A program made the translations under genes and the position numbers. A stretch of DNA of 64,000 bases from Escherichia phage myPSH2311. The stretch is from the sequence record MG976803.1; one strand, 5' to 3'. Each line of letters starts with the position of its first letter. The stretch's first letter is position 1. Positions 7,118 to 51,419 of the stretch are shown here, piece after piece. The notes beneath the pieces are model-generated. The model saw only the letters and a program-made list of their open reading frames with translations. It did not search any database and was not told where the DNA came from.

Positions 7118-7453
7118 ATGGCTAATCCAACTTTATTTGTATCGTATGACCAGAATGGTAAAAAACTTTCTTTTGCTAACTGGATTTCTGTTCTGTCCCC
7201 TCAGGATACCCCGTTCGTATCTATGACCGGTAAAGAGTCTATCAACCAGACTATCTTTAGCTGGCAGACCGATGCACTGGCAAGCGTTGACAGTAATAAC
7301 GCACACGTCGAAGGCTCTCGTGCTGAAGACGGCGAAATGAAACCGACTGTTATCAAATCTAACGTTAATGGTCCTTTGGACGTGGTAACTGATTGCAGTG
7401 TCAAGTCTTGGCATATGTCCATGTCCATGGCATTAAGCTATAAAGGCGCTTAG
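7118..7453 (+). CDS. major capsid protein, N-terminal segment (ends at in-frame TAG)
   Basis: RBS AGGAG upstream; same reading frame as 7463-8065, separated only by TAG at 7451-7453 plus 9 nt. Confidence 0.55.
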   Translation: MANPTLFVSYDQNGKKLSFANWISVLSPQDTPFVSMTGKESINQTIFSWQTDALASVDSNNAHVEGSRAEDGEMKPTVIKSNVNGPLDVVTDCSVKSWHMSMSMALSYKGA

Positions 7454-7462
7454 ACATGCGTA

Positions 7463-8065
7463 TTGCGTCTGAATGACACCCATGCAGCTCGTAAGACTGG
7501 TGCATTCCAGTTCCTGTGTGCTCACGGTGGTCTGGCTGGTGGCGTTGTTGACAAGACCAAGAATGGTCCTGCTGACCCGGACACTGGTGCAGTAACTGTT
7601 AAAGTTGCACAGAATGCTTCTAACCCGACCACTAACATTGGTTTCGACGAAGCTGATATCTTTGATATGACTCTGCAACTGTATACCGCTGGTTCTGAAG
7701 CAGATATCATCATGATTAACCCGGCTCATGCTAAGATCTTTGCTGGTCTGCAAGAAAATACTCAGGGTTCACGTAAGCGTATCTTTGAGAACACCAAGCA
7801 GTTCATCTACGAAGTTAACAGCATCACTGACCCGCTGGGCCAGAGCTACAAAATCATCGTTAACCGTTGGATGCCTACCGATGCAGTTTACTTCTTCCGT
7901 AGCGCTGACTGGACCCAGATGGTTCTACGTGCTCCGAAACGTACTGAACTGGCTAAAGACGGTTCTTACGAGAAGTGGATGATTGAAATGGAAGTTGGTC
8001 TGCGTCACCGCAACCCGTATGCTTCCGGCGTTCTGTTCACTGCTGCGGGAAAGGTGGCGGCGTAA
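7463..8065 (+). CDS. major capsid protein, C-terminal segment
   Basis: 200 aa, TTG start in track, no SD; in frame with 7118-7453; followed by slippery site and Ig-like ORF. Confidence 0.55.
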   Translation: MRLNDTHAARKTGAFQFLCAHGGLAGGVVDKTKNGPADPDTGAVTVKVAQNASNPTTNIGFDEADIFDMTLQLYTAGSEADIIMINPAHAKIFAGLQENTQGSRKRIFENTKQFIYEVNSITDPLGQSYKIIVNRWMPTDAVYFFRSADWTQMVLRAPKRTELAKDGSYEKWMIEMEVGLRHRNPYASGVLFTAAGKVAA

Positions 8066-9454: not shown

Positions 9455-10579
9455 ATGATCGTTTATAACAACCAAGCACCTAAGAATGTTAACAATGTAG
9501 GACAATTTGGAGCTACTGAGGGAACTATTGGTGCTTATAAATCAGCAGCTGAATATGCAGCAGACTCTAAATATTGGGCATTGTTGTCCCAAACTAAATA
9601 CTCCTCAGTAGAGGAGATTTTGGCTGAAGTAGAACGTCTGTATGCTCAAGGTCATCTACTGGAAGAAGACATTAAACAACTCAAGAGTGACTTTGAGTCA
9701 CAAGAACAAGTGCTCTTAGGTTTGATTCAATCCACAGGAACTGCAATTGACAACACCAATGCAGCAACTGAGCTTTCAAAAGAGGCAACTCAAAACGTTC
9801 TAGCACAACTTGACATTATCTCTAACATGACAGTTCAAACAACGCTTCTTCCTCCGGGAAGCCTAGCTACGGGGTCTTATGATAATGCAACAGGTGTCTT
9901 TGCTTTTGGTATTCCAGAAGGTAAACCGGGGCGTGATGGTACTGACGGAACAATCGGTGATATTGGAAGCGTTCCTGTTGGTACCCCTGTTGTTGATGAC
10001 TATGGTTTCTATGTAGATAAAGATGATGGTGGTTTATACCGAGCTGACATGTCAGATATTGCCAACTTGATTCCATCTGTTCGATCTGTTTCAATCAATG
10101 GCGGCGCTGAACAAACAGGTTCAGTGGTTTTTGATTCTGTCTCCACATTCAATGGACGTAAGGGTGCTGTAGTTCCTGCTACTGGAGACTACACAGCTGC
10201 TCAAGTGGGAGCTTTTAGTGTAACTAATAACCTATCCGAAATAACCGACACAAGTGCAGCTATTACAAATATTGGACTCGCTGAGCATGGGATTGGTAGC
10301 CCTACCTTAACCAAAGTGAAGGCTATGGACTGGCAAACATTTAATTTTGTCAATGGAGGTAACTATTCAGTATTAATGTCGAATATTACAAATGCCCCTG
10401 CTGAGATAAATTATCCTGCCAATTATGGGTTATATCTTGAAGTCATTGGCGTAGTTACAGGAGGAGGTGAGGTACGAGTGGTGCCAATTGCATTGGGAAT
10501 CCTCTCAATGGCATATTTTCCGCTTGGCCAATGCGCTTATGCCGTGGCAAATGTGCCACAACTGCTGCATTGTGTGTAG
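9455..10579 (+). CDS. tail fiber protein, N-terminal segment (ends at in-frame TAG)
   Basis: RBS AAGGAG; short collagen-like GKPGRDGTDGTIGDIG; TGDYTAAQVGA fiber-type motif; last 30 codons look non-native. Confidence 0.5.
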   Translation: MIVYNNQAPKNVNNVGQFGATEGTIGAYKSAAEYAADSKYWALLSQTKYSSVEEILAEVERLYAQGHLLEEDIKQLKSDFESQEQVLLGLIQSTGTAIDNTNAATELSKEATQNVLAQLDIISNMTVQTTLLPPGSLATGSYDNATGVFAFGIPEGKPGRDGTDGTIGDIGSVPVGTPVVDDYGFYVDKDDGGLYRADMSDIANLIPSVRSVSINGGAEQTGSVVFDSVSTFNGRKGAVVPATGDYTAAQVGAFSVTNNLSEITDTSAAITNIGLAEHGIGSPTLTKVKAMDWQTFNFVNGGNYSVLMSNITNAPAEINYPANYGLYLEVIGVVTGGGEVRVVPIALGILSMAYFPLGQCAYAVANVPQLLHCV

Positions 10580-10705
10580 CATCGCCAGCTTAGCGCTGCA
10601 TCAATTGTACCTATTACCAAAGGTGGTACAGGAGCTACTTCATCAGAGAATGCTCGACTAGCTCTAGTTGCAGCTAAGAGTGGTGATAACTCTGATATCA
10701 CCTCG

Positions 10706-26972: not shown

Positions 26973-27139
26973 TTGCAAGCCTTTTAAGGCGCGCTGAAGC
27001 GGCTTTAAATGGCGCTAAATCGTGCAAAATGCCCATTGGGAGCCTGAATGGCGCGTGTTTTGCATAAGCCGGCGTTTGCCCAGTTCGTAAGGCTGGTATT
27101 TTGCTGTAAAGCGTGATTCATCGCCGCCTGATGCGTACT

Positions 27140-27982
27140 ATGGAAGATAAGGGCATATCTAGAGAGGATGCTGAAGCATTTGCTGGTTCCTATATGGATA
27201 ACCGTTATGCACTTCTTGAGAAGCCTATGACTCCTACTGAACATCAGAATGCTCGTTCTCGTATCGAAGCTGATGTTGAGAAGTTTGCTAAGAAGTACGA
27301 ATCAATGACTCCTATCGAGAAAGAGATTGTTAAGGTTACTGGAGATACTGAAGGTAAGCTTGATAACTTGGATGCGGATACTAGGAAGGCTATTGAGGAG
27401 GCTCAGAAGGTTGACTCTGATATTAAGAAACTGCAAGAGGAAGAGTTGGAGATGGAGAAGATTCGTTCTGCTCTGCCTGATGATGAAAGATCTCAAGCAA
27501 ATTCTGATATCTTGGAAAGCATTAAACAACAGGAAGAGGTCTTTGCTGATAAAGTAGAGAAAGCTTTCTTGAGTGGGAAGAGCTTGGATGAGTTGGCTAG
27601 TGTGGCTGAAGTTTTAGACAGGGTTCATGGTGCAGATAAGGCTGGTAACAACCGTCGCTTTGTACGTGCATTGCAGACTGCTGCTGAAAACAAGAAGAAG
27701 TATGGTGATAATCCAGTAGCTTGGTTTAGTGCTGATGATTACTCTGCCATTGCTAAACTTGGTGCTTCTTCCGCAGGTGGTAACAAATCCAGAGCACTGG
27801 AGAAGATCTTTGGTTCTACAGCTGAACAGGCTAAGAGTAAGTTGCTTGGTAGGGATGATGTAGCGAAGATGAGACGTGTGATTGAAGAGAACCCTGATAT
27901 CAAGATTCCTTCTTACAAGACAGGTCAGGTTTCCAGTCCCAGTCAATGGGCATGCATGGTCCAAAATCGGCCCCTAGGGTAA
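27140..27982 (+). CDS. internal virion protein, truncated by insert
   Basis: track ORF 27113-27982; native-looking reading frame runs to 27922, last 20 codons derive from the filler. Confidence 0.45.
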   Translation: MEDKGISREDAEAFAGSYMDNRYALLEKPMTPTEHQNARSRIEADVEKFAKKYESMTPIEKEIVKVTGDTEGKLDNLDADTRKAIEEAQKVDSDIKKLQEEELEMEKIRSALPDDERSQANSDILESIKQQEEVFADKVEKAFLSGKSLDELASVAEVLDRVHGADKAGNNRRFVRALQTAAENKKKYGDNPVAWFSADDYSAIAKLGASSAGGNKSRALEKIFGSTAEQAKSKLLGRDDVAKMRRVIEENPDIKIPSYKTGQVSSPSQWACMVQNRPLG

Positions 27983-28022
27983 CGTCGGAATCCGGTACGC
28001 TTATGCCCCTAAGTGCATTTTT
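27923..28022. other. 100-bp GC-rich filler between perfect 81-bp direct repeats
   Basis: 27842-27922 is identical to 28023-28103; the intervening 100 bp is unrelated to flanks. Confidence 0.8.
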
Positions 28023-28247: not shown

Positions 28248-28524
28248 TAAAAGAAAAGCCCAGGGCTCGTTCAAGTCAAATGATGGGCTAGTCAATTAAG
28301 CCCCTTGGGCATAGCTGGCAATGCTAGTCACAACTTCTTCATTCATATACCCTCCTAGATTGTGTTTATAAAATTAGTAAGTTTCTCTTCACTTTCATCA
28401 AAAGCTTTTCCAGCTGCTTCCATCTCCCAAGTATCGGCATTGTCAATAAAGCTCTGAGCTTCTAATAGGTCGTGGATTAAGTCGAAGAGTTTATTTTTAT
28501 CTGCTTGTGTGATCATGTCAGTTC

Positions 28525-34426: not shown

Positions 34427-34723
34427 TTAGATAGTTAATTTGTGATCTTCCTCCGCTCTGTTTCTAACAGAGACGGCTTCTTCTAGGGTTGAGAAAGTTC
34501 CTAGGTATTTAGTTTTCGTTGAAAGGCTTAAGGCTTTTGGCATAGCTGCAAAATGGGCCCGTTAATATGACCCGTTAAAGGCTTTTTTGGCATGCGTAAA
34601 AGGCTTGCTTAAATTTCCTGCCTCATCACCCCGCCTGCATTTTGTTCCGTTGCGAATTCTCCAGAACACTTTCCCAGATGATAAATCACAAACAAAGAAC
34701 TCATCCAGAAGATCTTCTATCAT
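34427..34723 (-). pseudogene. HNH-AP2 homing endonuclease remnant with internal filler
   Basis: 5-prime 26 codons MIEDLLDEFFVCDLSSGKVFWR and 3-prime end KYLGTFSTLEEAVSVRNRAEED flank a GC-rich filler at about 34515-34645. Confidence 0.5.
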
Positions 34724-36295: not shown

Positions 36296-36487
36296 TCACT
36301 CTACCAATGCAGGTACTTCTATCCTTTTAACTGTGAATGACTTGTTTGGAAACTTTCGAACTAGCTCTGCTGCTTTGGTTATTGCTAAGTTCTCTGTCTC
36401 AAAGATACACAGTTGACCATTTAATGCTACGAGAGTGGAGCCACCACTGTAGATGGCCCAAGATTGATAATAACCACGAACACTCAT
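36296..36487 (-). CDS. hypothetical protein
   Basis: 63 aa ORF just downstream of polymerase. Confidence 0.35.
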   Translation of the reverse strand: MSVRGYYQSWAIYSGGSTLVALNGQLCIFETENLAITKAAELVRKFPNKSFTVKRIEVPALVE

Positions 36488-36495
36488 AACTCACC

Positions 36496-38340
36496 TTAGT
36501 GCGTATGCATCCAGTTAAGTCCAATCTGACAATCAGAGGCCAGAGGACATTCCATATTCAAATACTCACCAGCCTTCTTAACACAAAGCTCGGTGTGCTC
36601 TTTGAGTTTCTGTACATCGTTACGATTAACTGAGAACTGGCCCTCGTCGTGCATATCAATTACCTTAGCACAACGAACTCCATCCTTCTCAATCCACTTG
36701 TTAAGGAACATCATAGCGTATTTCATAACAACAGCACCAGCACATTGCAGGAGAGTGTTAAGTGCTTTATGAACCATAACTTTACCAGTGGCATCTCGTC
36801 TCATTGTAATCTTACGACCATCAACACCAATCAAGTATCCTTGAGCAGCTTTCTCTGTCATACGATCAATGAGGATTGCAATACATGGGTTCTCTGCCAA
36901 GAAACGTGCTCGCATCACTGAACCTTCGTCAGCCCCACCACCTACAATTGAGCCAAGCTTAGCGTCGCCAGCACCGTAGTTGAATGCATAGATAAACGTT
37001 TTAGCATTGTCACGAGTAGGAAGACCAGCAAGTTTCTGGTTGTGGGAGTGGATATCACCTTCAAGGAGAATATCACGATACATAATAGCAGAAGCTAAAC
37101 CACGTTCTGCCAGAGCTTTCTTAGCTGGGTTGTTCTCTTCGATTGCCTCAGCAAGCATATCCCTACACTCTTTAATGAGGTAGTGAGCTAGCATACGAAG
37201 TTCAAGTCCAGAACCATCATACCCTAAGAATACTTCTTTGCCAGCGGGTATGTAATATTTGTAAGCACCTATAGGTTTGTCTTTCTTCCCCGGCTTACCT
37301 TTCTCGTAAATTACGTTAGTACCTTTTCGTATATAACAACCATCAGGAACAACGTTAGTAATAACGAAAGGATGAGAATGATCACTGTCTGAGTTATAGT
37401 CAGACTCAAACAAACTGCGGCACTCGTGACCAAACAAACCACGGGAGGGAATATTAACCACGATACGATGTTTGAATCGAAAAGTCGGCGTAGCGCAGCT
37501 GTTAGCTTCTGCCGAAAGTTTACCATCTTCGCGCTCCTTTGCTATGAGTCCACTGATAAGACCTAGCCTGTGAGCCGCTACAACGCGTCTCTTAAGCAAA
37601 CTTCCGACACTCCCTAGCTCACCCCCTAACCCTTCTTCAAGGGTCTCCTCGAGGTTTGTAGGAGCTGTAGGCCACTTGTTTGATGTGGCTAGTGCTTTCT
37701 TAATCTCATCAAACGTTACAGGATTACGGCGATTAGGGTTTAATCCCAAACCAAATACGTAAGCCTTCATATAATTCTTAGTTTTAAACCTGAAATGCTT
37801 TTCTAAGAACTTCTTAATATCAGCGTCAACCATCTCGGCTGTCTGCTTCTGCTTAGCATTGCCTCGCATCCAAGCAGTATACCATGCTTGGTACGTTCCA
37901 TACTTTCTCATATCTTTCTTGATTTCGAAAGTATTCCAAGGCTTCTTAGATACGTTAAACTCTGGAGGAAGAAATCCCTCATCCATAAGAGCTTCTTTAA
38001 CTCGTGCATCTTTCGATGGGTCAAAGTCTACGTATTCGACACAGGTGAAAGCTCCACCAATGTCTTCCCTCTTCAGCCCAACCCTATCACAATAGGCTTG
38101 AGGCCACTTCTGTAAAGCTCCAGACTTCTTAAACGGCTTCATATAAGTAGAGCCATCTAATCTCATCTTAGGTAAGAGAGGAATCAGTTCTTTGTCAATA
38201 TTAACAATAATCTCTTTAAGGAGGTGAACATACCACCGAGCATTTCTTCGGTTGAAACTCACTCCGTGCTTTGCTTGCTTAGAGATTATATCAGCGACAG
38301 TCATCTCTGTCAAAAATGGAAGAGCGTCCGGGTTGCTCAC
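36496..38340 (-). CDS. DNA polymerase, family A (polymerase domain only)
   Basis: 614 aa; motif A GYDGSGLELR, motif B RDNAKTFIYAFNYGAG, motif C IDMHDEG. Confidence 0.85.
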   Translation of the reverse strand: MSNPDALPFLTEMTVADIISKQAKHGVSFNRRNARWYVHLLKEIIVNIDKELIPLLPKMRLDGSTYMKPFKKSGALQKWPQAYCDRVGLKREDIGGAFTCVEYVDFDPSKDARVKEALMDEGFLPPEFNVSKKPWNTFEIKKDMRKYGTYQAWYTAWMRGNAKQKQTAEMVDADIKKFLEKHFRFKTKNYMKAYVFGLGLNPNRRNPVTFDEIKKALATSNKWPTAPTNLEETLEEGLGGELGSVGSLLKRRVVAAHRLGLISGLIAKEREDGKLSAEANSCATPTFRFKHRIVVNIPSRGLFGHECRSLFESDYNSDSDHSHPFVITNVVPDGCYIRKGTNVIYEKGKPGKKDKPIGAYKYYIPAGKEVFLGYDGSGLELRMLAHYLIKECRDMLAEAIEENNPAKKALAERGLASAIMYRDILLEGDIHSHNQKLAGLPTRDNAKTFIYAFNYGAGDAKLGSIVGGGADEGSVMRARFLAENPCIAILIDRMTEKAAQGYLIGVDGRKITMRRDATGKVMVHKALNTLLQCAGAVVMKYAMMFLNKWIEKDGVRCAKVIDMHDEGQFSVNRNDVQKLKEHTELCVKKAGEYLNMECPLASDCQIGLNWMHTH

Positions 38341-39856: not shown

Positions 39857-40292
39857 TTATGAGCTTAAAGCTCCTTTGCGTGCTCCAGCTGCTTTTCCAG
39901 CTCGATCACCACTTTTGCCGCCGTTTGAACGGTTTGAGCTGACTGATTCAACACGTAAGTTGCTTGACGCATTAGAGCCTCCAGACTTGACAGCTCGTTT
40001 GTGTCCAACGTCTTTACCTCTGACAGCAGCTTTTCCATCGCGCTTTTCAACGATGCGACGTGCACGGTGGCGCTGAGCATCTCCGCTCTTGCTCCCAATT
40101 CCCGTTTCACCGCGCTTGATCGCAGTCCTTCTTTCTTGTGCATAATCTCTCTTTCCTACATGATCTGCCATTAGATTTCTCCTGTTGGGCAATGACGTTA
40201 AACGCCCGTTGTGGCCCAAAATTGGCGCCCAAAATTGGGGCTTAATGCGTGCGTAATTTTTGGGCCAAATTAAGGCCGTATATAATAACAGC
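39857..40292. other. GC-rich segment fused in frame to the PhoH ORF; coding status unclear
   Basis: two overlapping minus-strand frames both look protein-like; local GC well above phage average. Confidence 0.4.
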
Positions 40293-40840
40293 TGAGAGGT
40301 TTCTCCCAATCGAGTCATGATTGAGAAGGCTTCATCTTTAGTGGTGTTCTGGAACTCATCAACAATAACAATAGCATCATTGAAAGAACGACCACGGAGA
40401 TATTCCAGAGGTACAAACTCAATGTTACCATTTCCGATTTGGCATTCATAGAATCCCTTACCATATCGCTGAGTAATAACATCAATGATAGGCATCAGGT
40501 AAGGTTCAAACTTCTCACGCATTCCTCCCGGAAGTAACCCAAGAGAGTTGCCCATGCCGACAGAAGGGCGACTCAGAATGATCTTCTGAATCTTACCGCT
40601 CTTCAGTGCATCAATAACTGTGGAAGTGATTACAAAGGTCTTACCACAGCCCGCAGGAGCGTCTGTGAACACAACTTGTTTAGTCTTAATAGCATTGAGT
40701 AGCTCAGACTGAAACTGGTTCTGAGGGACTACAGGCTTTGCTAAAACCACCTCTTCATACTCTCGCTTACCTTTACGAGTAACAAGTGCTTCCCGACGAA
40801 GGTCTTTCCGTGATTCTTTCCGTGATTGACGACGACTCAT
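40293..40840 (-). CDS. phoH: PhoH-like ATPase, C-terminally disrupted
   Basis: Walker A DAPAGCGKTF, Walker B IVIVDEFQN, TRLGETSQ; conserved C-terminal region replaced. Confidence 0.6.
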
Positions 40841-41589: not shown

Positions 41590-41734
41590 ACTCTACGAAA
41601 GTAGAAGGCATATAGTCTACATCATCTTTAGACGTATGACCATAAACTTGAATAAGCTTTTTAATCTTATCCTTCTCTCTTCGAGGAAGCATCCTAAATG
41701 CCTCCTGAATATCTGTAATATGTTTGATTTTCAT
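41501..41734 (-). CDS. hypothetical protein
   Basis: 77 aa ORF overlapping the previous one by 89 bp; one of the two may be spurious. Confidence 0.3.
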   Translation of the reverse strand: MKIKHITDIQEAFRMLPRREKDKIKKLIQVYGHTSKDDVDYMPSTFVECGIARGFTFDHKVFQQFVDHWRKDGKESL

Positions 41735-41750
41735 CAGAAAGCCTCTGATA

Positions 41751-42095
41751 TTAACTCTCCAAAGTTTTCTTCAGAGCTGCCCATGAGATTGGGTAGAGCT
41801 TAGCCATCTCTTCATCTACGGATTTAGCAAACACTCGAACTTCATATTGAGCGTGAGATGAGAGTCGCTGACGACACAACTCAAACCAGCCATACAAAGA
41901 ACCAGTCCACACCCACTCAGTGATCATCCCCTGAGGAAGAACAAATCGAGCTTGCTCTGGTGCAATAAATTCAATCAACTTGTCATATGTTGCTAGAGAA
42001 GCTTCATATGCATCGTTAATCAACATTAATGCTTCAGCTCGTTCTCCGTCGATGAGTTGAATCCCTGAACCTGCATGGTTTGCCCAAAATGGCAT
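41751..42095 (-). CDS. thyX: flavin-dependent thymidylate synthase ThyX, C-terminal half
   Basis: ARFVLPQG..RLSSHAQYEVR matches ThyX C-terminal conserved block. Confidence 0.6.
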   Translation of the reverse strand: MPFWANHAGSGIQLIDGERAEALMLINDAYEASLATYDKLIEFIAPEQARFVLPQGMITEWVWTGSLYGWFELCRQRLSSHAQYEVRVFAKSVDEEMAKLYPISWAALKKTLES

Positions 42096-42163
42096 TGGCG
42101 CTATAGCATGGGGCTTTTTAAATGGCCCCGCGGGTTAATGCTAATGGCGGATTTTGGCCACGG

Positions 42164-42469
42164 TTATGCATGCGTAGGGAGTTCAACTGCTCCATCTTTA
42201 TACCGCCGGGACATTTCGTTCCACGAGAATCCAACCTGATGCTTGCCCAGCTGTCTCGCAATTGCGATAGGTGCTTTGCATCGGAAACTGACTTGCGGGT
42301 GTCGGAATGGAGTACAGTGTTTTTCCCGTGCAAGGAAGTTGATAAGTTTTGTGTCTCTCTCATTTAAGTCACCTTCTCGAACAACACCGAAAGATACTCT
42401 AGCTGCATTGACTACAGATTTGTCACTACCCATTGCTTCAATCAGTGTTGCTTGTAGTTGTTCGTTCAA
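42164..42469 (-). CDS. thyX: flavin-dependent thymidylate synthase ThyX, N-terminal half
   Basis: AARVSF, HCTPFRH and KH..FSWNEMSRRY resemble the ThyX signature; separated from the C-terminal half by a filler. Confidence 0.6.
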   Translation of the reverse strand: MNEQLQATLIEAMGSDKSVVNAARVSFGVVREGDLNERDTKLINFLAREKHCTPFRHPQVSFRCKAPIAIARQLGKHQVGFSWNEMSRRYKDGAVELPTHA

Positions 42470-42908
42470 TTAAAAGTTCCTTTTTTCGATTCATGTAAAC
42501 TTGATGAGCTTCTTCGGCAGTTCCATACATACCTAGATGTATATCTACTTTATCAATACAAATAACAGCCCTATATCTAATAGTCCCTGATTTATATTTG
42601 ACAACCTTAACACCTTGAAGCCCTGTTTCCTTGTTTGATACCCTAGCCCCGAACTGGTTGTGGCAGTTTGTCGAGGTGTCCACCAATCTCAAGTTCTGTA
42701 TTGAGTTGTTCTTCTTATTTCTATCGATATGGTCTATCTGAGAAGAAGGCCACTCTCCATAGTAAAAGAACCATGCCACTTTATGAGCTTTGTGTACTTT
42801 CCCTTTAAACCGCAGGGTTATGTACTTACTTCGAGTTCCTCCTAATTTCTTACCTTTTCGAAAGAACTCTCCAGTCTCAGGGATATACTCTAAATCATCG
42901 ATTAACAT
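42438..42908 (-). CDS. HNH homing endonuclease with AP2 domain
   Basis: QIDHIDRNKKNNSIQNLRLVD HNH motif, N-terminal YIPETGEFF, C-terminal AP2-like LGMYGTAEEAHQVY. Confidence 0.8.
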   Translation of the reverse strand: MLIDDLEYIPETGEFFRKGKKLGGTRSKYITLRFKGKVHKAHKVAWFFYYGEWPSSQIDHIDRNKKNNSIQNLRLVDTSTNCHNQFGARVSNKETGLQGVKVVKYKSGTIRYRAVICIDKVDIHLGMYGTAEEAHQVYMNRKKELLIERTTTSNTD

Positions 42909-43173
42909 TCAGAGCTGTATCTAAAAATGCTTTCAGGTTTGCTTCAGTCTGCATACCAGAGAGGCTGTAGTGTGCACCACTGTTACGGTCAGGCACAACG
43001 AAAGCAGGGATACTTCGTACACCATACTTAACAGCTTGTTCACGACCATCACCTTCAAGGATGTTAATCTCTTCCACTTCTACATCAAACTCCTTAACAA
43101 CCTTCTCAAAGGTAGGAGCCATTGCTTTACATGGAGCACACTGATCACTATAAAACTTAATTACTTTAGACAT
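42895..43173 (-). CDS. thioredoxin-like protein
   Basis: 92 aa; active-site-like CAPC in thioredoxin fold context. Confidence 0.55.
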   Translation of the reverse strand: MSKVIKFYSDQCAPCKAMAPTFEKVVKEFDVEVEEINILEGDGREQAVKYGVRSIPAFVVPDRNSGAHYSLSGMQTEANLKAFLDTALNVNR

Positions 43174-43422: not shown

Positions 43423-44034
43423 TTAGTAAGACACGTCACCACTTGAATGGGACATGTTGCTCTTGACGAAGTAGCAATACTTGCCAAGACCTTCATTAAT
43501 TTCTTGAAGCATACTCTGATCGACAGGGTAGGATGCTAAATCGCCATCAAACTCATCCATCTTCTCAATAATACACATCAAGGTCATGCACATATCAGAG
43601 AGCATACCGTCCATGTCTAGATCAGCATTACCCTCTGAGAACCAGGCATGGGAGAGGTAGTTAGCCGCTGTAGCATCCACCTTAACGCAGTGGTATCGCA
43701 TACGCTCAGCAATACGATCTCCTACCTGTCGTGCGTAATCTTCCAGCTCGTCAAACATACCATGAACACCCTGAAATCCTGCACCAGAGACATTCCAGTG
43801 GTAGTTTTTAGCTTTGATATGCAAGAGTTCCATGTTAGCTTGTAAGCAGCTCAGGATGTGTTCTAGGCTGTTTGCACTAATCATGCCTTGCATTGTTTCA
43901 AGGCGAGAGATTGAAAGCTCAGACCGGTCTAACATACTATAACTGTCACGACCAATCTCAGGTAAATCAAAAACATTCTTATGCATTTGGGTTTTCTCCA
44001 TCAAGTTCAACTGAGTTAGCAACATTACGTGCAA
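43423..44034 (-). CDS. hypothetical protein
   Basis: 203 aa ORF. Confidence 0.45.
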   Translation of the reverse strand: MHVMLLTQLNLMEKTQMHKNVFDLPEIGRDSYSMLDRSELSISRLETMQGMISANSLEHILSCLQANMELLHIKAKNYHWNVSGAGFQGVHGMFDELEDYARQVGDRIAERMRYHCVKVDATAANYLSHAWFSEGNADLDMDGMLSDMCMTLMCIIEKMDEFDGDLASYPVDQSMLQEINEGLGKYCYFVKSNMSHSSGDVSY

Positions 44035-44237
44035 TATTATCCATTACCTGCTGGGTAATTACGATGCAGTTTAGGCATGGTAATGCGTTTAGGCGTCTTG
44101 GGGAGGTGCCCCCAGTTGCAAGCTGATGCTGCGGGTAAATTGGCGCCATGGGAAACGCGTTAATGCGTGCCTGATGTTATCTTTTCTCATGTGTTGCTCA
44201 AGATCCCAAACAACATGAATAGCCCACATCTTTTTCA

Positions 44238-44447
44238 TTAGTAATGTACCTTTCCGCTGATATAAACACGACCAGAAGAATACTCCTTGGCCTTATGGAT
44301 GCTGATACTATTAACCACGTCACCAGTAAGCATAGTCTTTTTAAAATCTCGAGCTTGTTGACGAGTAGGGAGTGCAGTCATAGTCATACCACCTGATGCC
44401 CACTTAATCTTCGCTAACCAGAATTTTCTCATAGTGATTGGTCTCAT
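44238..44447 (-). CDS. hypothetical protein
   Basis: 69 aa ORF. Confidence 0.35.
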   Translation of the reverse strand: MRPITMRKFWLAKIKWASGGMTMTALPTRQQARDFKKTMLTGDVVNSISIHKAKEYSSGRVYISGKVHY

Positions 44448-44644
44448 TAGTAATAAACCTTACTGTTGACACAAAAAGCACCTTCACTATTCACGATAGC
44501 TTTTCCTAATGTAACCTTGTTAAGTCTAAAAGTAGACTTGTATTGGTTTTTGACCCTACGTGCGTGCTCTCGAGTATTAACAAAATCTACAGCTACTAAC
44601 TCTCCAGTCGTGTTATCATGTACACGAACAATCCACTTTTTCAT
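44447..44644 (-). CDS. hypothetical protein
   Basis: 65 aa ORF, ATGA overlap. Confidence 0.35.
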   Translation of the reverse strand: MKKWIVRVHDNTTGELVAVDFVNTREHARRVKNQYKSTFRLNKVTLGKAIVNSEGAFCVNSKVYY

Positions 44645-44847
44645 TTTACTAAACCCTTCATGTAGTCATAAAGATCATTAGAAGCTTTACCCCATTCAAG
44701 GTGCTTCTTATCCATATAACGCTTACAGACTTCTTTATTACCTTCATCACAAGTATCAAATCGATGACATGCCCGACCAAATACCATTGCTTTTAACTGA
44801 GCATCAGTAGTTAAATATTTAAGTTCTTGAAACTCTTCTTTATTCAT
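44641..44847 (-). CDS. hypothetical protein
   Basis: 68 aa ORF, overlap coupling. Confidence 0.35.
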   Translation of the reverse strand: MNKEEFQELKYLTTDAQLKAMVFGRACHRFDTCDEGNKEVCKRYMDKKHLEWGKASNDLYDYMKGLVK

Positions 44848-45381
44848 TTACACACCCTTAGATGCAACTACACCTTCAGAGTTATTATAACGACCCTTCA
44901 CTGCATAGGAGTGTTCCCCTGCATGAGAGTGCTCAAACATGACCATCTGACCAACACGCATACCAGCACGAACTCGTAAGCTATGATGCTTGGTTACGTT
45001 ATGGAATTCAAATGTCAGCTTACTACTATTAAATCCTGCATCTGCCCAACCGGCGTGAAGGTGGTTCAAACCACAACGAGCCATAGACGAACGCAGAACA
45101 AACAGACTTGAGATGTTATCTGGAAGATTAAACTCCTCCATAGAGTGAGCCAAGAAGAACTGACCCGGAGTGATAACCAAACCCTCTTCAGGAATCTTTA
45201 CTTCCTTCCACTGAAGATTCTCTTTCGCATCAATATCAACGATGCCATCAGCCTGTTCTTCAACAAGGATAGTATCGCCAATACGAATATCCACACTAGC
45301 AGCGTTAACATACTTATGCTCCGCATCCAGATAGCCATTGTCAATTACATCATGCAGTTCAACACTTCCTAGTAAACTCAT
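44848..45381 (-). CDS. dCTP deaminase / dUTPase-family protein
   Basis: 177 aa; VLRSSMARCGL and GWADAGF motifs; RBS AAGGAG. Confidence 0.6.
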   Translation of the reverse strand: MSLLGSVELHDVIDNGYLDAEHKYVNAASVDIRIGDTILVEEQADGIVDIDAKENLQWKEVKIPEEGLVITPGQFFLAHSMEEFNLPDNISSLFVLRSSMARCGLNHLHAGWADAGFNSSKLTFEFHNVTKHHSLRVRAGMRVGQMVMFEHSHAGEHSYAVKGRYNNSEGVVASKGV

Positions 45382-45498
45382 TCTTGCTCCTTAGTTATTT
45401 GTTTCCATTTAAGCGTGCATATTTTGGCTAATTTTTGGCGTAAAAGTTTTCGCCCAGTGCCTGATTGAACCGGGTCGTAATTATTGCCCGGGTAGTGT

Positions 45499-45591
45499 TT
45501 AAAATGGCGAGGAATTAACAGCTGAGTGTGGTGCATCAATAACACCATCATCAATTAATTTATGTAACTCTGGACTTCCTAGTAAACTCAT
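45499..45591 (-). pseudogene. diverged duplicate of the dCTP deaminase 5-prime end
   Basis: encodes MSLLGSPELHKLIDDGVIDA then runs into filler; compare MSLLGSVELHDVIDNGYLDA of the intact gene. Confidence 0.55.
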
Positions 45592-45600
45592 TCTTATTCC

Positions 45601-45978
45601 TTAGTTATTTGTTTCCATGTCAAAAGAGATTCCACGACCCGCTTCATCGGCAAACCGAACTGTACGGGTTTGAGGTTCTAATACTTCAGGGTTGTTAGCA
45701 ATAAAGCGATCAGCGAGACTATCTCCCAAATCTTGTTCCATACCTTCATCAGTCCAGATAACACGAGAAGGGGCGTTGATATCACCAACAGCGAAACCCT
45801 GACCAGAGAACTGACGTGCGCTAACAGTTAAGCCGTTTGGTCGACCACGAGAGGGTCTAGCCATCCATCGCTCCATAGAATCACTTGTAATACCAAGAGC
45901 TTCTTCAAAAGATGTTCTACGAGTAGGGCTTTCTCTTCGTGACTCTTGTGCTCGACGCATTGCAGGGGCTACAAACAC
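45601..45978 (-). CDS. hypothetical protein
   Basis: 125 aa; N-terminal codons may derive from the upstream filler. Confidence 0.4.
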   Translation of the reverse strand: MFVAPAMRRAQESRRESPTRRTSFEEALGITSDSMERWMARPSRGRPNGLTVSARQFSGQGFAVGDINAPSRVIWTDEGMEQDLGDSLADRFIANNPEVLEPQTRTVRFADEAGRGISFDMETNN

Positions 45979-46034
45979 CCCTTCAATTGCAAATTGGCGC
46001 CCAATTTGGCAATGATTTGCCCCGTTTGTTAAGC

Positions 46035-46949
46035 CTATGCAAATGTGCGCTTTGGCGATTGGGCCAAATTGGCCTGAAGACTAGACATAATCTGAATCTC
46101 TTCATAAGGGATTCCAAAGAATCGACTCATGTCTCGGTTAACACAATATAGAGCACTTGTTGTATCTTCAATAAGAGAAACCTGACCTAATCCATTGACT
46201 AGATGACTAACTGGCTGAGGTGTGGGAAGATATCGAGTTTGGGCCATGTATTGATGCGCAACTGCTGGAGAGGAAAATCTCAACACTTGTGAGTTAGGCC
46301 ACTTCTTGTGAACATACCTGATTTCACGACTAGAGACAACCACTGGACAAGGGGAAGTCATAGCCAAATATCCGTGAGAAGTCATGAATAAGTTGTCAAG
46401 AGTCATCGCACCACGGCACATCATAGGAAAATTATCCAATACCTCTTCAATAGAAGTAGGATAATTAAACATGAATTGGATACGAACCCCATTCCACTGA
46501 AACTCAATAATATCAGTGAATGTTAATTGAGAACCCCCAGCATAGGATTCGTTTGTAGCTTCAGCAAGAAGTGATGCATATTCAATATCTTGTGACTCTA
46601 GCCATTCCTTCACATTACTTTCAATCTCCCGTCCAAGCTCTTGCCAACGATCAGTTGGGATGAAAGTGTTTTGAGTTCTTGGTGTTTGTCCTCTGACAAT
46701 AAAGATATCAATGTCATGTGGAGCTATGTTATTAAGGACAGCATCACGAACAGCCCCACCAGTAATGATGGGACAGATACCATCTGGAATCAAGTTGTTG
46801 TTAATCAACTGTTCAATGAAGTGACGACCAACAGTGATATCAGGTTGTTGAGCAACCTTATCTTCAATTTGGTTAATCGGGATAACAATCATTTTACATT
46901 TTCCAATATAATGAAGGTGGGTCGTAAGGGTCAAATCCCGTGAGTTCAC
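46035..46949 (-). CDS. nucleotidyltransferase (Pol beta superfamily, CCA-adding/poly(A) polymerase-like head)
   Basis: [15 protein letters not shown] motif. Confidence 0.5.
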
Positions 46950-47451
46950 ACAAGAAAAGATAAACCTTAACAGTTAAGTTAACGTCCTGTTCACAATAAG
47001 TAAACATATCTTCAGTGAAAGCATCCCATGCTTCCTCTTGCTCACCATAATCGCCCTTAAGTTCTCCTAAGAACTCACCCCACTGCTTCAAACCATGACC
47101 CCTTGGGCCACGTCTAGGGTCGCCTTTCGGATACTCAGGACTGTCACCAATACGGTCAGGTTTAAGATATCGACTAAGACATAAAGTGTCGAAGACGTTA
47201 AAACGATAGTTAATCAGATTGGGATACATCTTCTTCAGAGCACAAAGGTCGAAGTCAATAATATTGTGACCCACCAGTACATCTGCTTCTGTAAGTTTAC
47301 GAATCCCATCTTCAATTTGGTGAGGCCGATAGCCCCACCTTTCACCAGTTTCAACATCGAAGATATAAATACACCATACTTTAGTTATGTCATCGTACAG
47401 TGCATTACTCTCGATATCGAATGCAAACACTTTCTTCTTTTTCTTTACCAC
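46894..47451 (-). CDS. 3-5 exonuclease (DnaQ-like), separate from polymerase
   Basis: Exo I FDIES, Exo II HNIIDFD, Exo III YCEQD. Confidence 0.75.
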
Positions 47452-48785
47452 GGTGAAGCTCCATCTGCTTGGTTGACGAGAGAAGCTGCATCCTCTCCGT
47501 TAGTTAAAACGAATGGATTATCTTCATCAACTTCAAAGTCTTCCCTTTCTACAAGTCTCCCGGTTTCACTGATATACTTAGTATAGCAGACACCTGTCTG
47601 ACCGTAGTTACGTTCTTTCAGTAATCGAATGACTGAGAGGTTCTTAGCTAAGCCATCAGCTTGCTTGTCACGCTCAAAGCCAATGATACACTGACACCAA
47701 CGCATAAGAGAACGAGAGCCAGTGAACTGCACTTCACGTACCTGTCCACCTTCTTCATGAGGAGCACCACCTGCCGGAGCATTAAGGTGAGATAGCACGA
47801 AAGCGGTAAAGTCTAATTCTTTGCACATACCAGCAAGCTCGGAAGCAATCTTACTGATTTCAGTGTTAATCTCTGAAGGTGTTAAATGGGACACCAGAGC
47901 GGTAATGTTATCAAGGATGATGAACTTACACTGGTTTTCAACTACCCAGAAACGGATACACTGTTTAATGTCTTCCCATTCATTCTGTCCGAAGTTGTCA
48001 TACAAGAAGAATTTGTCTGCATAACGAAGTGCTTCATTACGCAAATCCTCCTCATCATATTCAACATCAGGTCGGTGGAAAGGAATTGATGCCGACTTAC
48101 CAGCAATGTTCTTAACAGACATGCCTACCTTCTCTTCCAAGAAGAAGCCACCTCCATTAAAACCATGTTCTAAGCACAGATGAGCAACCAGCTCATGAGC
48201 AATGAGTGTTTTACCACTCCCTACTCCACCACCAATTGCTACCACCTCTCCCCATCGAATACCGAAGGTCATCTCATTCAGAGTCTTCCACGGATATGGG
48301 ATACCCCACTCCGCTTTCTTCAGAGCATCATCAAGGCAATCAAAGATTGTTACAGCACCAGCAGGAGATTCCCGCTTTGCTGAGTACTTGAGAATGTTGA
48401 ATAACTCTTGACCACGACCAGACAGAAGCATGTCATTCGCATCCTTAATCTCTTTCTCCACACCGTTGTATGGGAAAGTTCCTTTAGGAATACGAGCAAA
48501 CTTAACATGAGGGAATAAAGAACGACCTTTTGTTAAAGCTATCTCACCTGCATCATCGTTGTCCATGCAGAGCACAACCTCCTCAAAACCATTTACGAAG
48601 TCTCGATTACGAGACAACACAGAAGAGATTGAACCTGCACCGAACGGTAAAGAAACACATGCTGGTTTGATGTTTGTTGCATTTGTAAAAGCTGTAAGGA
48701 CATGGAAACCTGACATACAGGATAGCGGGTCTTCAAAAATGAACAGCTTCTTGTTGTACACATCTCCACGTTGAGCTTGTGCCAT
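47445..48785 (-). CDS. primase-helicase (TOPRIM + DnaB-like helicase)
   Basis: [15 protein letters not shown]; Walker [10 protein letters not shown]; no zinc-binding domain in this ORF. Confidence 0.8.
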
Positions 48786-48905
48786 ACCAAAATTGCGTGA
48801 CGTTGGCTAATTGCTGACGTGGAATGGCCCTGGCAATTGGGATGCCCCGTGTTAGCTGCGATTTGGCGCGTTATTGGCCCCGTGTTTGCAAGTAATGCGC
48901 GGGCT

Positions 48906-49124
48906 TTATGCCGTTAATGCTGGGTTTATGCGTGCATATTGCTGTGCCAATGCGTAATGGGTAGTGCCCTTTTCGAACACTTCGTAATTCCCACAACGGT
49001 TACAACTCCCCCACTCCTCACCAGTCTCTTCGTTACGGAAGAGAATCATGTGGTTGTGGGTTTTATCACGACCATGAGAGATACATTCCTTACAACCTGT
49101 GTCTCCCAAAATGATCTTTGACAT
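48906..49124 (-). CDS. zinc-ribbon protein, probable detached primase zinc-binding domain
   Basis: CKEC..CNRC pairs; separated from the TOPRIM ORF by a GC-rich filler. Confidence 0.45.
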   Translation of the reverse strand: MSKIILGDTGCKECISHGRDKTHNHMILFRNEETGEEWGSCNRCGNYEVFEKGTTHYALAQQYARINPALTA

Positions 49125-49606: not shown

Positions 49607-49706
49607 AATGGGCCGTTTTATGCGGTTTAAAGGCCTTGACCAGTGCATTTGCCCGTTAAATGGCGTGGGGATTTCCCAGTGCGGGTGGCCAGTAAACGTG
49701 TTTTGT
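49607..49706. other. 100-bp GC-rich filler between 110-bp direct repeats
   Basis: 49497-49606 matches 49707-49816; intervening 100 bp unrelated. Confidence 0.8.
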
Positions 49707-49926: not shown

Positions 49927-50137
49927 TATCTATACCTTTCCAGTCTTTCATGATGTTTTCAATGTAAGCACACTGCTGATCAGTGGCTCCTGTTACAAAC
50001 ACTTCTAACCCCAACTGCTCACAGAAGGGATTAAGAATCAATATTCTGGTTTGCCCATACGAGTGATGCTCTCGGTAGATAACACACCCAGCATCCCATA
50101 CAGAATCAATGGCTTTACTCAATCTTTCATGTTTCAT
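49871..50137 (-). CDS. hypothetical protein
   Basis: 88 aa ORF between the triplicated array and the GGCT-like gene. Confidence 0.4.
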   Translation of the reverse strand: MKHERLSKAIDSVWDAGCVIYREHHSYGQTRILILNPFCEQLGLEVFVTGATDQQCAYIENIMKDWKGIDNVRSNLRSNLWFSSSWSS

Positions 50138-50190
50138 AAAACCTCCAGCTTATCCGAACTAGCCTCCTCTTTCGAAGAGGCTAAAGCAGA

Positions 50191-50376
50191 TTACTCTGTA
50201 ATAAAGATTTTGATTACACCACAGATTGCTGCACTCTCAAATACTGCAACAGCTTCACTCCCCTGAAAGAAGGCCACTTTGCCGTCAGAGAAGTTAAACA
50301 TGTCAGCATCTAGGTCCATAGCTCGCATATCACCAGCGTCGTTAGTATCTTTAAACAGAACTTTATACTTATTCAC
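50191..50376 (-). CDS. small acidic protein C, copy 3
   Basis: 61 aa MNKYKVLFKDTND..., ends in Glu; identical to copy 2. Confidence 0.5.
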   Translation of the reverse strand: MNKYKVLFKDTNDAGDMRAMDLDADMFNFSDGKVAFFQGSEAVAVFESAAICGVIKIFITE

Positions 50377-50621
50377 AGATAGGTCACTCCTTTGTCTTGT
50401 TGTGCTTCAGAGATGATACGTTCTACACATTCCATAGAATACTTATCACCACGTTTCAGGAAAGTCACAATTGCAGAGAATTGATTACCAATCATTCGCT
50501 GATTAGTAATACCCCACTCCTCACACAACTTACGCAACTCTTTACGAGAGCCTACAATCAGAGGCTCTTTTTGTTCCATCATTCCATTTTGTACTAGATC
50601 TTCCAATGAAAACATATCCAT
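50373..50621 (-). CDS. small protein B, copy 3
   Basis: 82 aa MDMFSLEDLVQNG...; ATGA overlap with gene C. Confidence 0.5.
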   Translation of the reverse strand: MDMFSLEDLVQNGMMEQKEPLIVGSRKELRKLCEEWGITNQRMIGNQFSAIVTFLKRGDKYSMECVERIISEAQQDKGVTYL

Positions 50622-50627
50622 ATATCC

Positions 50628-51419
50628 TTAGTAGTTTACAACAGTGCCATCGTTCAGGGTAAGGCTATTAATCTGCAACACACGACCAAGCTGACGATCA
50701 CTAATTGGTGCGTTCCATCCAGAGCGGTAGAAGTTACGACCACAGAAGAACAAGATCACATTACTTGCTACAGTCGAACCGTTTTCAGGATGCTTGATGT
50801 TAGCGATATAATAACCACGACGCAGATTACGACGGGTTACAGGGTTGATCTCTAACCCTTGCTCTTCAACTTGCATTGTTTCAGGAACAGGTTCCGAAGA
50901 TTCTTCAGCAACTGGCTCGGAGCTTTCCACTGACAGTGCGTAATCCTCATCACCTGCTGGTGAAAATGTTTCTTCCACTTCTTCAACAGGAAGTTCGTAT
51001 GCAACACGATAGTCAGGCTCAACACCAGAGAAGCTCTTAACAAACTCAACAATATTGTGAGTATAGGTTTCCAGAGTTGTTCCAGTCAGTCCCGGAGCTG
51101 TGTTAACTTCCAGAACCCAAGCGTTAGTATTTTTACTAATCAGGTCAACAGCACCAAAGTTCAAACCCAGAGCAGATACAGCTTTGTGAGCTTGAATCAA
51201 AACCTGATCAGGAGGCGCATCTTGGAAGTTTGAGGAATAAACCCAACCAGTGTGATGATTTCGAACGTCTTCACGATAGGAAGGATCTTCACGGTAACCA
51301 TTACGACGAATCTTCTTCTGAACGTAAGTGATAACACCTTCGAATACATGAACACGCCATTCACGATTGGTGAACGATAAGGGAAAGGTCCTTGGCCATA
51401 GCGTGGCGTATGCATGCAT
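50628..51419 (-). pseudogene. ATP-grasp ligase 3-prime half, truncated copy
   Basis: starts within filler and joins ATP-grasp at REWRVHVFEG; retains EVNTAPG motif; lacks N-terminal ATP-binding half. Confidence 0.55.

What the first reader, a model, noticed from the sequence alone, without database searches (positions are those of the whole stretch)
41751..42469. Thymidylate synthase thyX split into two ORFs by a short filler
The N-terminal ORF carries the AARVSF, HCTPFRH and S..RY signature; the C-terminal ORF carries ARFVLP and SHAQYE blocks. Between them lies about 70-100 bp with filler-type k-mers that adds a stop and a new start. The adjacent HNH-AP2 endonuclease gene suggests a homing-type hotspot.
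Basis: partly seen in the sequence, partly recalled or inferred. Interest (0 to 1): 0.55.

Follow-up and report, generated by a model that had tools for sequence, protein, structure and literature searches.

The report
Assembly spacer splits phage thyX gene
The "split" thymidylate synthase gene is an artefact: a 100-base non-biological spacer, placed where two assembly contigs were joined, overwrites 38 bases of an otherwise intact, ordinary phage thyX gene.

Summary
On the minus strand, two ORFs carry the N-terminal (Pfam Thy1 positions 1-92) and C-terminal (positions 106-190) halves of ThyX. Foreign-looking sequence between them supplies a stop and a new ATG.

It is not biology. The window is bases 1-64000 of GenBank MG976803 (Escherichia phage myPSH2311, a Kuravirus): 79 of 82 published ORF coordinates fit it exactly. 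The authors built that genome by ordering de novo contigs on a reference with CONTIGuator, whose default gap for overlapping contigs is 100.

The foreign piece is exactly 100 nt (42079-42178). It replaces 38 native bases that are identical in ES17, myPSH1131 and two IMG/VR contigs. Restoring them gives an intact 206-aa ThyX, 205/206 residues identical to ES17.

About 16 similar pieces of roughly 100 nt sit at other junctions, where the reference coordinates skip, overlap or jump back. They share an odd 4-mer composition (z = 6.7 for the thyX piece) but do not align to each other. The thyX piece was searched for and not found in the phage, virome, metagenome, genome and E. coli collections. No published ORF overlaps any of them.

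The neighbouring HNH endonuclease gene is a real, variably present gene, unrelated to the split. Interest is very low.

The parts
42079..42178 (.). 100-nt non-native spacer (filler) inside thyX. It supplies the TAA stop (42164-42166, minus strand) and the new ATG (42093-42095), and it replaces 38 native bases.
   Evidence: Alignment to ES17 and YW01. blastn block ends at 42078 and 42179. The native 38 nt are identical in ES17, myPSH1131 and 2 IMG/VR contigs. The leave-one-out 4-mer score has z 6.7. No match in any collection searched.
42179..42433 (-). Native 5' part of thyX (codons 1-85; MGSDKS...KDGAVEL). The ORF as it reads in the window runs on to the stop at 42164 inside the filler.
   Evidence: Pfam Thy1 positions 1-92. 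99% identical to ES17. The ES17 annotation starts at the equivalent ATG.
41751..42078 (-). Native 3' part of thyX (...HAGSGIQLIDGE...KKTLES, stop). The ORF as it reads in the window begins at an ATG (42095) inside the filler. The authors' ORF48 is 42026-41751.
   Evidence: Pfam Thy1 positions 106-190. 100% identical to myPSH1131 44070-45804. The 91-aa product is AVP40145.1 / AVQ10062.1. Table S4 of PMC6437105.
42438..42908 (-). Free-standing HNH endonuclease gene between the thioredoxin gene and thyX. It is real, it varies among Kuraviruses, and it is unrelated to the split.
   Evidence: Pfam HNH_3. The exact protein equals the ES17 homing endonuclease YP_010673354.1. Only 4 of 98 related records cover this part.
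40185..40286 (.). Another spacer of the same class. The ES17 coordinate jumps by 1,041 bp across it, creating a chimeric PhoH ORF (39857-40840).
44072..44171 (.). Another 100-nt spacer of the same class.
45409..45508 (.). Another 100-nt spacer. The flanking blocks overlap by 110 nt on ES17.
49607..49706 (.). Another 100-nt spacer. The flanking blocks overlap by 110 nt on ES17.
27923..28022 (.). Another 100-nt spacer. The flanking blocks overlap by 81 nt on ES17.
7368..7466 (.). Another spacer (99 nt unaligned).
51367..51460 (.). Spacer between allele 1 and allele 2 of the triplicated ATP-grasp region.
52764..52859 (.). Spacer between allele 2 and allele 3 of the triplicated ATP-grasp region.
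54527..54623 (.). Another spacer. The ES17 coordinate jumps from 53751 to 58469 across it.
60549..60648 (.). An unalignable piece of exactly 100 nt at a junction (ES17 64322 to 66109). Its composition differs from the other fillers.

Best explanation
The window is the first 64 kb of GenBank MG976803 (Escherichia phage myPSH2311, genus Kuravirus). The authors did not close this genome. They made it by ordering de novo contigs on a reference genome with CONTIGuator, which places a fixed 100-position gap between contigs. One contig join falls inside thyX. In the sequence given here those 100 positions (42079-42178) are filled with arbitrary letters. These letters happen to contain a TAA in the frame of the upstream half and an ATG in the frame of the downstream half, so a naive ORF scan shows two ThyX half-genes. 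The true phage almost certainly has the ordinary intact 621-bp thyX of its relatives, with 38 native bases where the spacer sits. Nothing is spliced, bypassed or assembled from two chains. Shown here: the identity of the window, the exact 100-nt replacement, the recurrence and odd composition of the spacers, their absence elsewhere, and the authors' assembly method. Inferred: that the 100 positions were originally Ns, and who turned them into letters.
For: 1. Identity of the window. 79 of 82 ORF coordinates in Table S4 of PMC6437105 are clean start-to-stop ORFs at exactly those window coordinates, including ORF48 'Thymidylate synthase' at 42026-41751. The window GC is 42.49%, against 42.4% published. 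The 91-aa C-terminal product is AVP40145.1 of myPSH2311.

2. Assembly method. [quoted passage not shown] 3. The thyX piece. Exactly 100 nt in the window replace 38 nt that are identical in ES17, the sister record myPSH1131 and two IMG/VR contigs. The flanks are 99-100% identical right up to the edges. Putting the 38 nt back gives an uninterrupted 206-aa ORF, 205/206 residues identical to ES17 ThyX.

4. Recurrence. Only 16 pieces of the window remain uncovered by ES17 or myPSH1131. Ten of them are 96-102 nt long and five are exactly 100. Across them the reference coordinate skips (for example +1,041 bp), overlaps (81-110 nt duplicated) or jumps back. One ES17 region is present three times, as three different alleles.

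5. Composition. The fillers lack common 4-mers such as AAGA, GAAG, CTCT and ATCA, and are enriched in CGCG, GCGT, GGCC and ATGC. CpG observed/expected is 1.1 against 0.65 in native sequence. The thyX filler, scored with a model trained on the others, reaches +100.9 against a background maximum of 19.8.

6. Absence elsewhere. The filler has no match in 50,697 phage records, IMG/VR, JGI metagenomes, GTDB genomes or 28 Gb of E. coli genomes. The ORF products that contain filler-coded residues are not among about 15 billion proteins.

7. Annotation. None of the 82 published ORFs overlaps any filler. ORF44 and ORF48 start at an ATG just downstream of a filler.
Against: I could not read MG976803 itself, because it is absent from the tool collections. 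So I cannot say whether the public record has Ns or letters at 42079-42178. Who produced the letters is also unknown. The sister record myPSH1131, as held in the phage collection, has letters rather than Ns in its own junction pieces of about 100 nt. At this junction the two contigs are 38 nt apart on ES17 rather than overlapping, so the '100 for overlapping contigs' rule fits only if the gap is fixed or was computed on another reference. A 6-nt repeat (CATGCA) flanks the region, and an excision between its two copies would be in frame. A biological reading could invoke this.
Confidence: 0.97

Rival explanations
1. A small non-autonomous mobile element (MITE-like, or a remnant of a homing event linked to the neighbouring HNH endonuclease) inserted into thyX. 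This would leave a gene truly split into two polypeptides that reassemble, or a pseudogene.
For: An HNH endonuclease gene lies immediately upstream. A 10-nt imperfect inverted repeat sits near the ends of the piece (I3). Many filler pieces in the genome could superficially look like a dispersed repeat family.
Against: The pieces do not align to each other beyond shuffled controls, so they are not copies of one element. The event is a 100-for-38 replacement that removes 12-13 conserved residues, not an insertion with a target-site duplication. Lengths are quantised at about 100 nt and the pieces sit at reference discontinuities. The piece occurs in none of 98 related phages nor in any other collection. 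ES17 and YW01 carry the same HNH gene with an intact thyX.
Confidence: 0.015
2. Programmed translational bypassing (a T4 gene 60-like hop). The ribosome takes off at GCA followed by TAA (42168-42170 / 42164-42166) and lands on the GCA of the downstream CATGCA, making one fused ThyX chain.
For: The matching CATGCA hexamers are in frame with each other. A stop codon follows the first one directly. A GGGGC...GCCCC hairpin lies in between.
Against: The fused product would lack FIPKEIFARPSDL, which is present in all relatives and aligns with solved ThyX structures. The RNA fold is no better than shuffles (z -0.34). There is no Rfam match and no conservation in any other genome. ATGCAT-type words are typical of the fillers, so the repeat is expected by chance.
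Confidence: 0.005
3. A self-splicing or otherwise processed intron interrupts thyX.
For: Phage nucleotide-metabolism genes (td, nrd) are classic intron hosts (own knowledge).
Against: At 100 nt the piece is far below group I or II intron size (own knowledge). No intron family is found by Rfam even at E <= 10. The structure is not significant. Removing the piece does not restore the gene, because 38 native bases are missing.
Confidence: 0.003

Closest known systems
Reference-guided pseudomolecules (CONTIGuator / ABACAS) with fixed 100-position gaps between contigs
   Same: The assembly method is documented for this very genome, and the default gap of 100 is quoted. The unalignable pieces are about 100 nt long and sit at every discontinuity relative to the reference. 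Flanking contig ends overlap or skip, and redundant allelic contigs are placed in tandem.
   Different: In the window the gap positions are letters, not N. The letters have an artificial-looking vocabulary of unknown origin.
ThyX (flavin-dependent thymidylate synthase, Pfam PF02511) of Kuravirus phages, e.g. ES17 YP_010673353.1
   Same: After the 38 native bases are restored, the gene is 621 bp (206 aa) and 205/206 residues identical to ES17 ThyX. It lies in the same position between the HNH/thioredoxin genes and the 'anti-restriction nuclease' gene. It resembles solved ThyX structures (6j61, E 5e-29; T. maritima 1kq4, E 2e-23).
   Different: As written in the window, it is interrupted.
Truly split phage genes (T4 topoisomerase genes 39/60 with the 50-nt bypass; Aeromonas phage Aeh1 nrdA split by mobE), recalled from own knowledge
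   Same: Superficially similar: a nucleotide- or DNA-metabolism gene in two ORFs with an endonuclease gene nearby.
   Different: Here no endonuclease lies between the halves and conserved residues are lost. The interrupting sequence is unique to one scaffolded record and belongs to a set of assembly spacers.

Membership tests
Assembly spacer at a contig join (CONTIGuator pseudocontig) | Fixed length (100) regardless of the true gap | tested here: met
   42079-42178 is exactly 100 nt and replaces 38 nt. Five of the pieces left uncovered are exactly 100 nt (a sixth, 45409-45508), and the others are 91-102 nt.
Assembly spacer at a contig join (CONTIGuator pseudocontig) | Sits where collinearity with the reference breaks (skips, overlaps, redundant contigs) | tested here: met
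   ES17 coordinates skip, overlap by 81-110 nt or jump back at the spacers. Three alleles of ES17 52.1-53.7 kb lie in tandem.
Assembly spacer at a contig join (CONTIGuator pseudocontig) | Documented use of such a scaffolder for this record | tested here: met
   The window coordinates equal Table S4 of PMC6437105. The methods state CONTIGuator2. The default gap of 100 is quoted.
Assembly spacer at a contig join (CONTIGuator pseudocontig) | Spacer positions are N in the deposited record | not testable with these tools
   MG976803 is not in the collections. Indirectly, no published ORF enters a spacer.
ThyX / Thy1 (PF02511) | Pfam domain above the gathering score | tested here: met
   The halves score 64.9 and 73.4 bits against a cutoff of 24.8, covering profile positions 1-92 and 106-190.
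ThyX / Thy1 (PF02511) | ThyX motif RHRxxSxxxxSxRY | tested here: inconclusive
   The sequence reads KHQVGFSWNEMSRRY. The S...SxRY part is kept but RHR is KHQ, as in ES17 and YW01. This is a natural feature of the clade and was not examined further.
ThyX / Thy1 (PF02511) | A single uninterrupted chain of about 200-250 aa | tested here: not met
   Not met as written in the window. It is met once the 38 native bases replace the spacer.
Translational bypass (T4 gene 60 type) | Matched take-off and landing codons with a stop after take-off | tested here: met
   GCA-TAA ... GCA, in frame. This is expected by chance given the ATGCAT-rich filler vocabulary.
Translational bypass (T4 gene 60 type) | The bypass restores a complete homologue, and the signal and structure are conserved | tested here: not met
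   The product would lack 12-13 conserved residues. The fold has z -0.34. No other genome carries it.
Group I / II intron | Match to an intron covariance model; excision restores the ORF | tested here: not met
   No intron hit at E <= 10. Excision cannot restore the missing 38 nt.
MITE-like mobile element | Several alignable copies, terminal inverted repeats, target-site duplication | tested here: not met
   Fillers align to the thyX filler no better than shuffles do. There is only a 10-nt imperfect inverted repeat. The event is a replacement, not an insertion.

The most novel reading that the evidence does not exclude
The 100 nt are really present in phage myPSH2311 DNA. ThyX would then be made as two chains, or by ribosomal bypass between the flanking CATGCA repeats. 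It would be a naturally split or recoded flavin-dependent thymidylate synthase next to a homing endonuclease.
Probability: 0.01. Interest if true: 0.55.

Novelty: not a real feature. Interest (0 to 1): 0.03.

Why it matters
It matters only as a caution. This GenBank 'complete genome' is a reference-ordered patchwork of contigs. Its join positions, read as sequence, create false split genes (thyX), chimeric ORFs (phoH) and false tandem gene triplications. Any scan of this window will produce further false findings at the other spacers, so these should be discounted. The underlying thyX is an ordinary Kuravirus gene.

Tried and rejected
1. Intron: an Rfam scan of 41700-42520 at E <= 10 gave only four chance snoRNA/sRNA hits, all far below their gathering scores.

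2. Structured RNA or bypass signal: the fold of 42060-42200 has z -0.34 against shuffles.

3. Mobile element family: the pairwise local scores between fillers are no higher than for shuffled sequence. The longest exact word shared with the rest of the window is 11 nt.

4. Host-derived insert: no match in 5,426 E. coli genomes.

5. Natural occurrence elsewhere: no exact match to the filler or to a window-type junction in IMG/VR, JGI metagenomes or GTDB genomes.

6. Fetching MG976803 directly: it is not in the collections. The look-up of encoding contigs returned only the sister record.

7. The CONTIGuator paper itself (PMC3133546) does not state the gap size in its text. The default of 100 came from a paper that used the tool.

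8. I looked at whether the sister record myPSH1131 explains the origin of the filler letters. It has the native 38 nt at this site. It also has its own junction pieces of about 100 nt, with a more natural composition. I could not explain that difference.

Full report
**Observation.** Two ORFs lie head to tail on the minus strand.
- ORF 42164-42469 contains NAARVSF, HCTPFRH and SRRY. Its likely true start is the ATG at 42433, as annotated in ES17.
- ORF 41751-42095 contains ARFVLP and SHAQYE.
- Pfam Thy1 (PF02511) matches profile positions 1-92 in the first (E 1e-17) and 106-190 in the second (E 3e-20).
- The ORFs are in different frames. Sixty-eight nt separate the TAA of the first from the ATG of the second.
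- The next ORF upstream (42438-42908) has an HNH_3 domain.

**What the interrupting sequence is.**
- The region is 92-99.7% identical to about 98 Kuravirus (phiEco32-like) coliphages. The best match is ES17, which carries an intact 621-bp thyX.
- In the alignment with ES17 and YW01, identity is essentially complete on both sides. The only differences between window and ES17 there are SNPs at 42239, 42181, 42042 and 42022. Between 42078 and 42179, 100 nt in the window stand in place of 38 nt in the relatives.
- Those 38 nt (AGGTCCGAAGGTCTCGCAAAAATCTCTTTAGGGATGAA on the + strand) are identical in ES17, in the sister record myPSH1131 and in two IMG/VR contigs.
- Substituting them for the 100 nt gives an open 206-aa ORF that matches ES17 ThyX at 205 of 206 residues.
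- The event is therefore a replacement. It removes the conserved segment FIPKEIFARPSDL, which aligns with solved ThyX structures. Both the TAA and the new ATG lie inside the foreign 100 nt.

**The piece is one of a class.**
- blastn of the whole window against ES17 breaks into blocks separated by unalignable pieces, many of them exactly 100 nt long: 27923-28022, 42079-42178, 44072-44171, 45409-45508, 49607-49706 and 60549-60648. Others are 94-102 nt.
- After adding myPSH1131 as a second reference, only 16 pieces of the 64 kb remain uncovered.
- Across these pieces the reference coordinate skips (for example 1,041 bp at 40185-40286), overlaps by 81-110 nt, or jumps back.
- ES17 52.1-53.7 kb is present three times in tandem as different alleles. 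Their best matches are myPSH1131 (100%), ShigP1 (99.8%) and ES17 (99.8%).
- The pieces share a peculiar vocabulary. AAGA, GAAG, CTCT and ATCA are absent, while CGCG, GCGT, GGCC and ATGC are strongly enriched. CpG observed/expected is 1.1 against 0.65.
- Scored with a model trained only on the other pieces, the thyX piece reaches +100.9. The maximum among 5,795 native windows is 19.8 (z 6.7). The ES17 genome peaks at 22.4.
- The pieces are nevertheless not copies of one another. Local alignment scores do not exceed those of shuffled sequence.

**Where the window comes from.**
- The exact 91-aa C-terminal product (MLINDAY...) is annotated as thymidylate synthase in Escherichia phage myPSH2311 (AVP40145.1) and in myPSH1131.
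- Supplementary Table S4 of the myPSH2311 paper (PMC6437105) lists ORF coordinates. 79 of the 82 that fall below 64000 are clean start-to-stop ORFs at exactly the same window coordinates. The three exceptions look like 1-2 nt typos.
- ORF48 'Thymidylate synthase' is listed at 42026-41751.
- The window is therefore bases 1-64000 of GenBank MG976803.
[quoted passage not shown] - None of the published ORFs overlaps a spacer. ORF44 and ORF48 begin at an ATG just downstream of a spacer, although longer ORFs run into the spacers in the window. This is what one expects if those positions could not be translated when the genome was annotated. That last point is inference.

**Absence elsewhere.** The thyX filler has no significant match in any of the following:
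- 50,697 phage records;
- IMG/VR, searched both for the filler and for a window-type junction;
- JGI metagenome contigs;
- GTDB genomes;
- 28 Gb of complete E. coli genomes.

The ORF products containing filler-coded residues are not among about 15 billion proteins.

**Rivals.**
- *Intron.* There are no Rfam intron hits even at E <= 10. The size is far too small (own knowledge). Excision cannot restore the missing 38 nt.
- *Translational bypass.* CATGCA occurs just before the TAA and again 95 nt downstream, in frame. The hop product would lack 12-13 conserved residues. The RNA fold is unremarkable (z -0.34). ATGCAT-type words are typical filler vocabulary.
- *MITE or homing remnant.* There are no alignable copies, no target-site duplication and no occurrence in any relative. 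ES17 and YW01 have the same HNH gene next to an intact thyX.

**Open point.** I could not read MG976803 itself. I therefore cannot say whether the deposited record has Ns or these letters, nor who produced the letters. The sister record myPSH1131, as held in the phage collection, is built the same way. It has junction pieces of about 100 nt made of letters with a more natural composition. This affects who is responsible for the letters, not the conclusion that the split is non-biological.

**Verdict.** The feature is an assembly or scaffolding artefact over an ordinary Kuravirus thyX. Confidence is about 0.97. Novelty: not a real feature. Interest: 0.03.

Noticed in passing
window 1-64000: The whole window is a reference-ordered patchwork (GenBank MG976803, myPSH2311). 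About 16 spacers of roughly 100 nt are not found in relatives. They will generate further false 'split gene', 'novel intergenic element' or 'repeat' findings. Intervals: 7368-7466, 10487-10595, 26976-27115, 27923-28022, 28262-28329, ~34517-34656, 40185-40286, 42079-42178, 44072-44171, 45409-45508, ~45992-46074, 48792-48957, 49607-49706, 51367-51460, 52764-52859, 54527-54623, 60549-60648.
   Followed up: yes
window 49940-54526: The ATP-grasp gene region (ES17 52.1-53.7 kb) occurs three times in tandem as three alleles, separated by spacers. Their best matches are myPSH1131 (100%), ShigP1 (99.8%) and ES17 (99.8%). This points to redundant contigs from a mixture of several Kuravirus strains, or cross-sample carry-over, rather than a real triplication. 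The sister record myPSH1131 (MG983840.1) carries the same three alleles.
   Followed up: partly
window 39857-40840: The 327-aa 'PhoH' ORF is a chimera. Its N-terminal PhoH part runs through spacer 40185-40286 into unrelated sequence, and 1,041 bp of ES17 are skipped at this junction. The authors annotated only 40171-39857.
   Followed up: partly
window 42438-42908: The free-standing HNH (HNH_3) endonuclease gene between the thioredoxin gene and thyX is variable. Among 98 related phage records, only ES17 (two records), YW01 and TH38 cover it. Most others have thyX next to trx, or carry different DNA there. This is a real presence/absence polymorphism typical of homing endonuclease genes. The authors did not annotate it, nor the thioredoxin gene (42895-43173) or the 5' half of thyX.
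   Followed up: partly
window 42203-42247 (minus strand; ThyX residues ~63-77): The canonical ThyX motif RHRxxSxxxxSxRY reads KHQVGFSWNEMSRRY in this phage and in ES17/YW01 (RHR replaced by KHQ). This is a natural trait of the clade. Whether it affects FAD or dUMP binding or substrate choice was not examined.
   Followed up: no
L009/L010 (MG983840.1, myPSH1131), e.g. 36444-36543, 43970-44069, 47353-47452, 53386-53485, 64515-64614: The public sister record labelled 'complete genome' is also a patchwork. It has junction pieces of about 100 nt, duplicated exonuclease, ATP-binding and ATP-grasp regions, and a thyX truncated at its 5' end by a mis-join at 45959/45960. Its junction pieces have a natural-like composition and partly match Kuravirus DNA in fragments. 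Their origin is unexplained.
   Followed up: partly
window 60549-60648: This unalignable junction piece is exactly 100 nt long, but its composition (GAGT/GAGC/TCGT-rich) differs from the other fillers and it scores negative with the filler model. It is possibly a different kind of fill or real divergent sequence.
   Followed up: no
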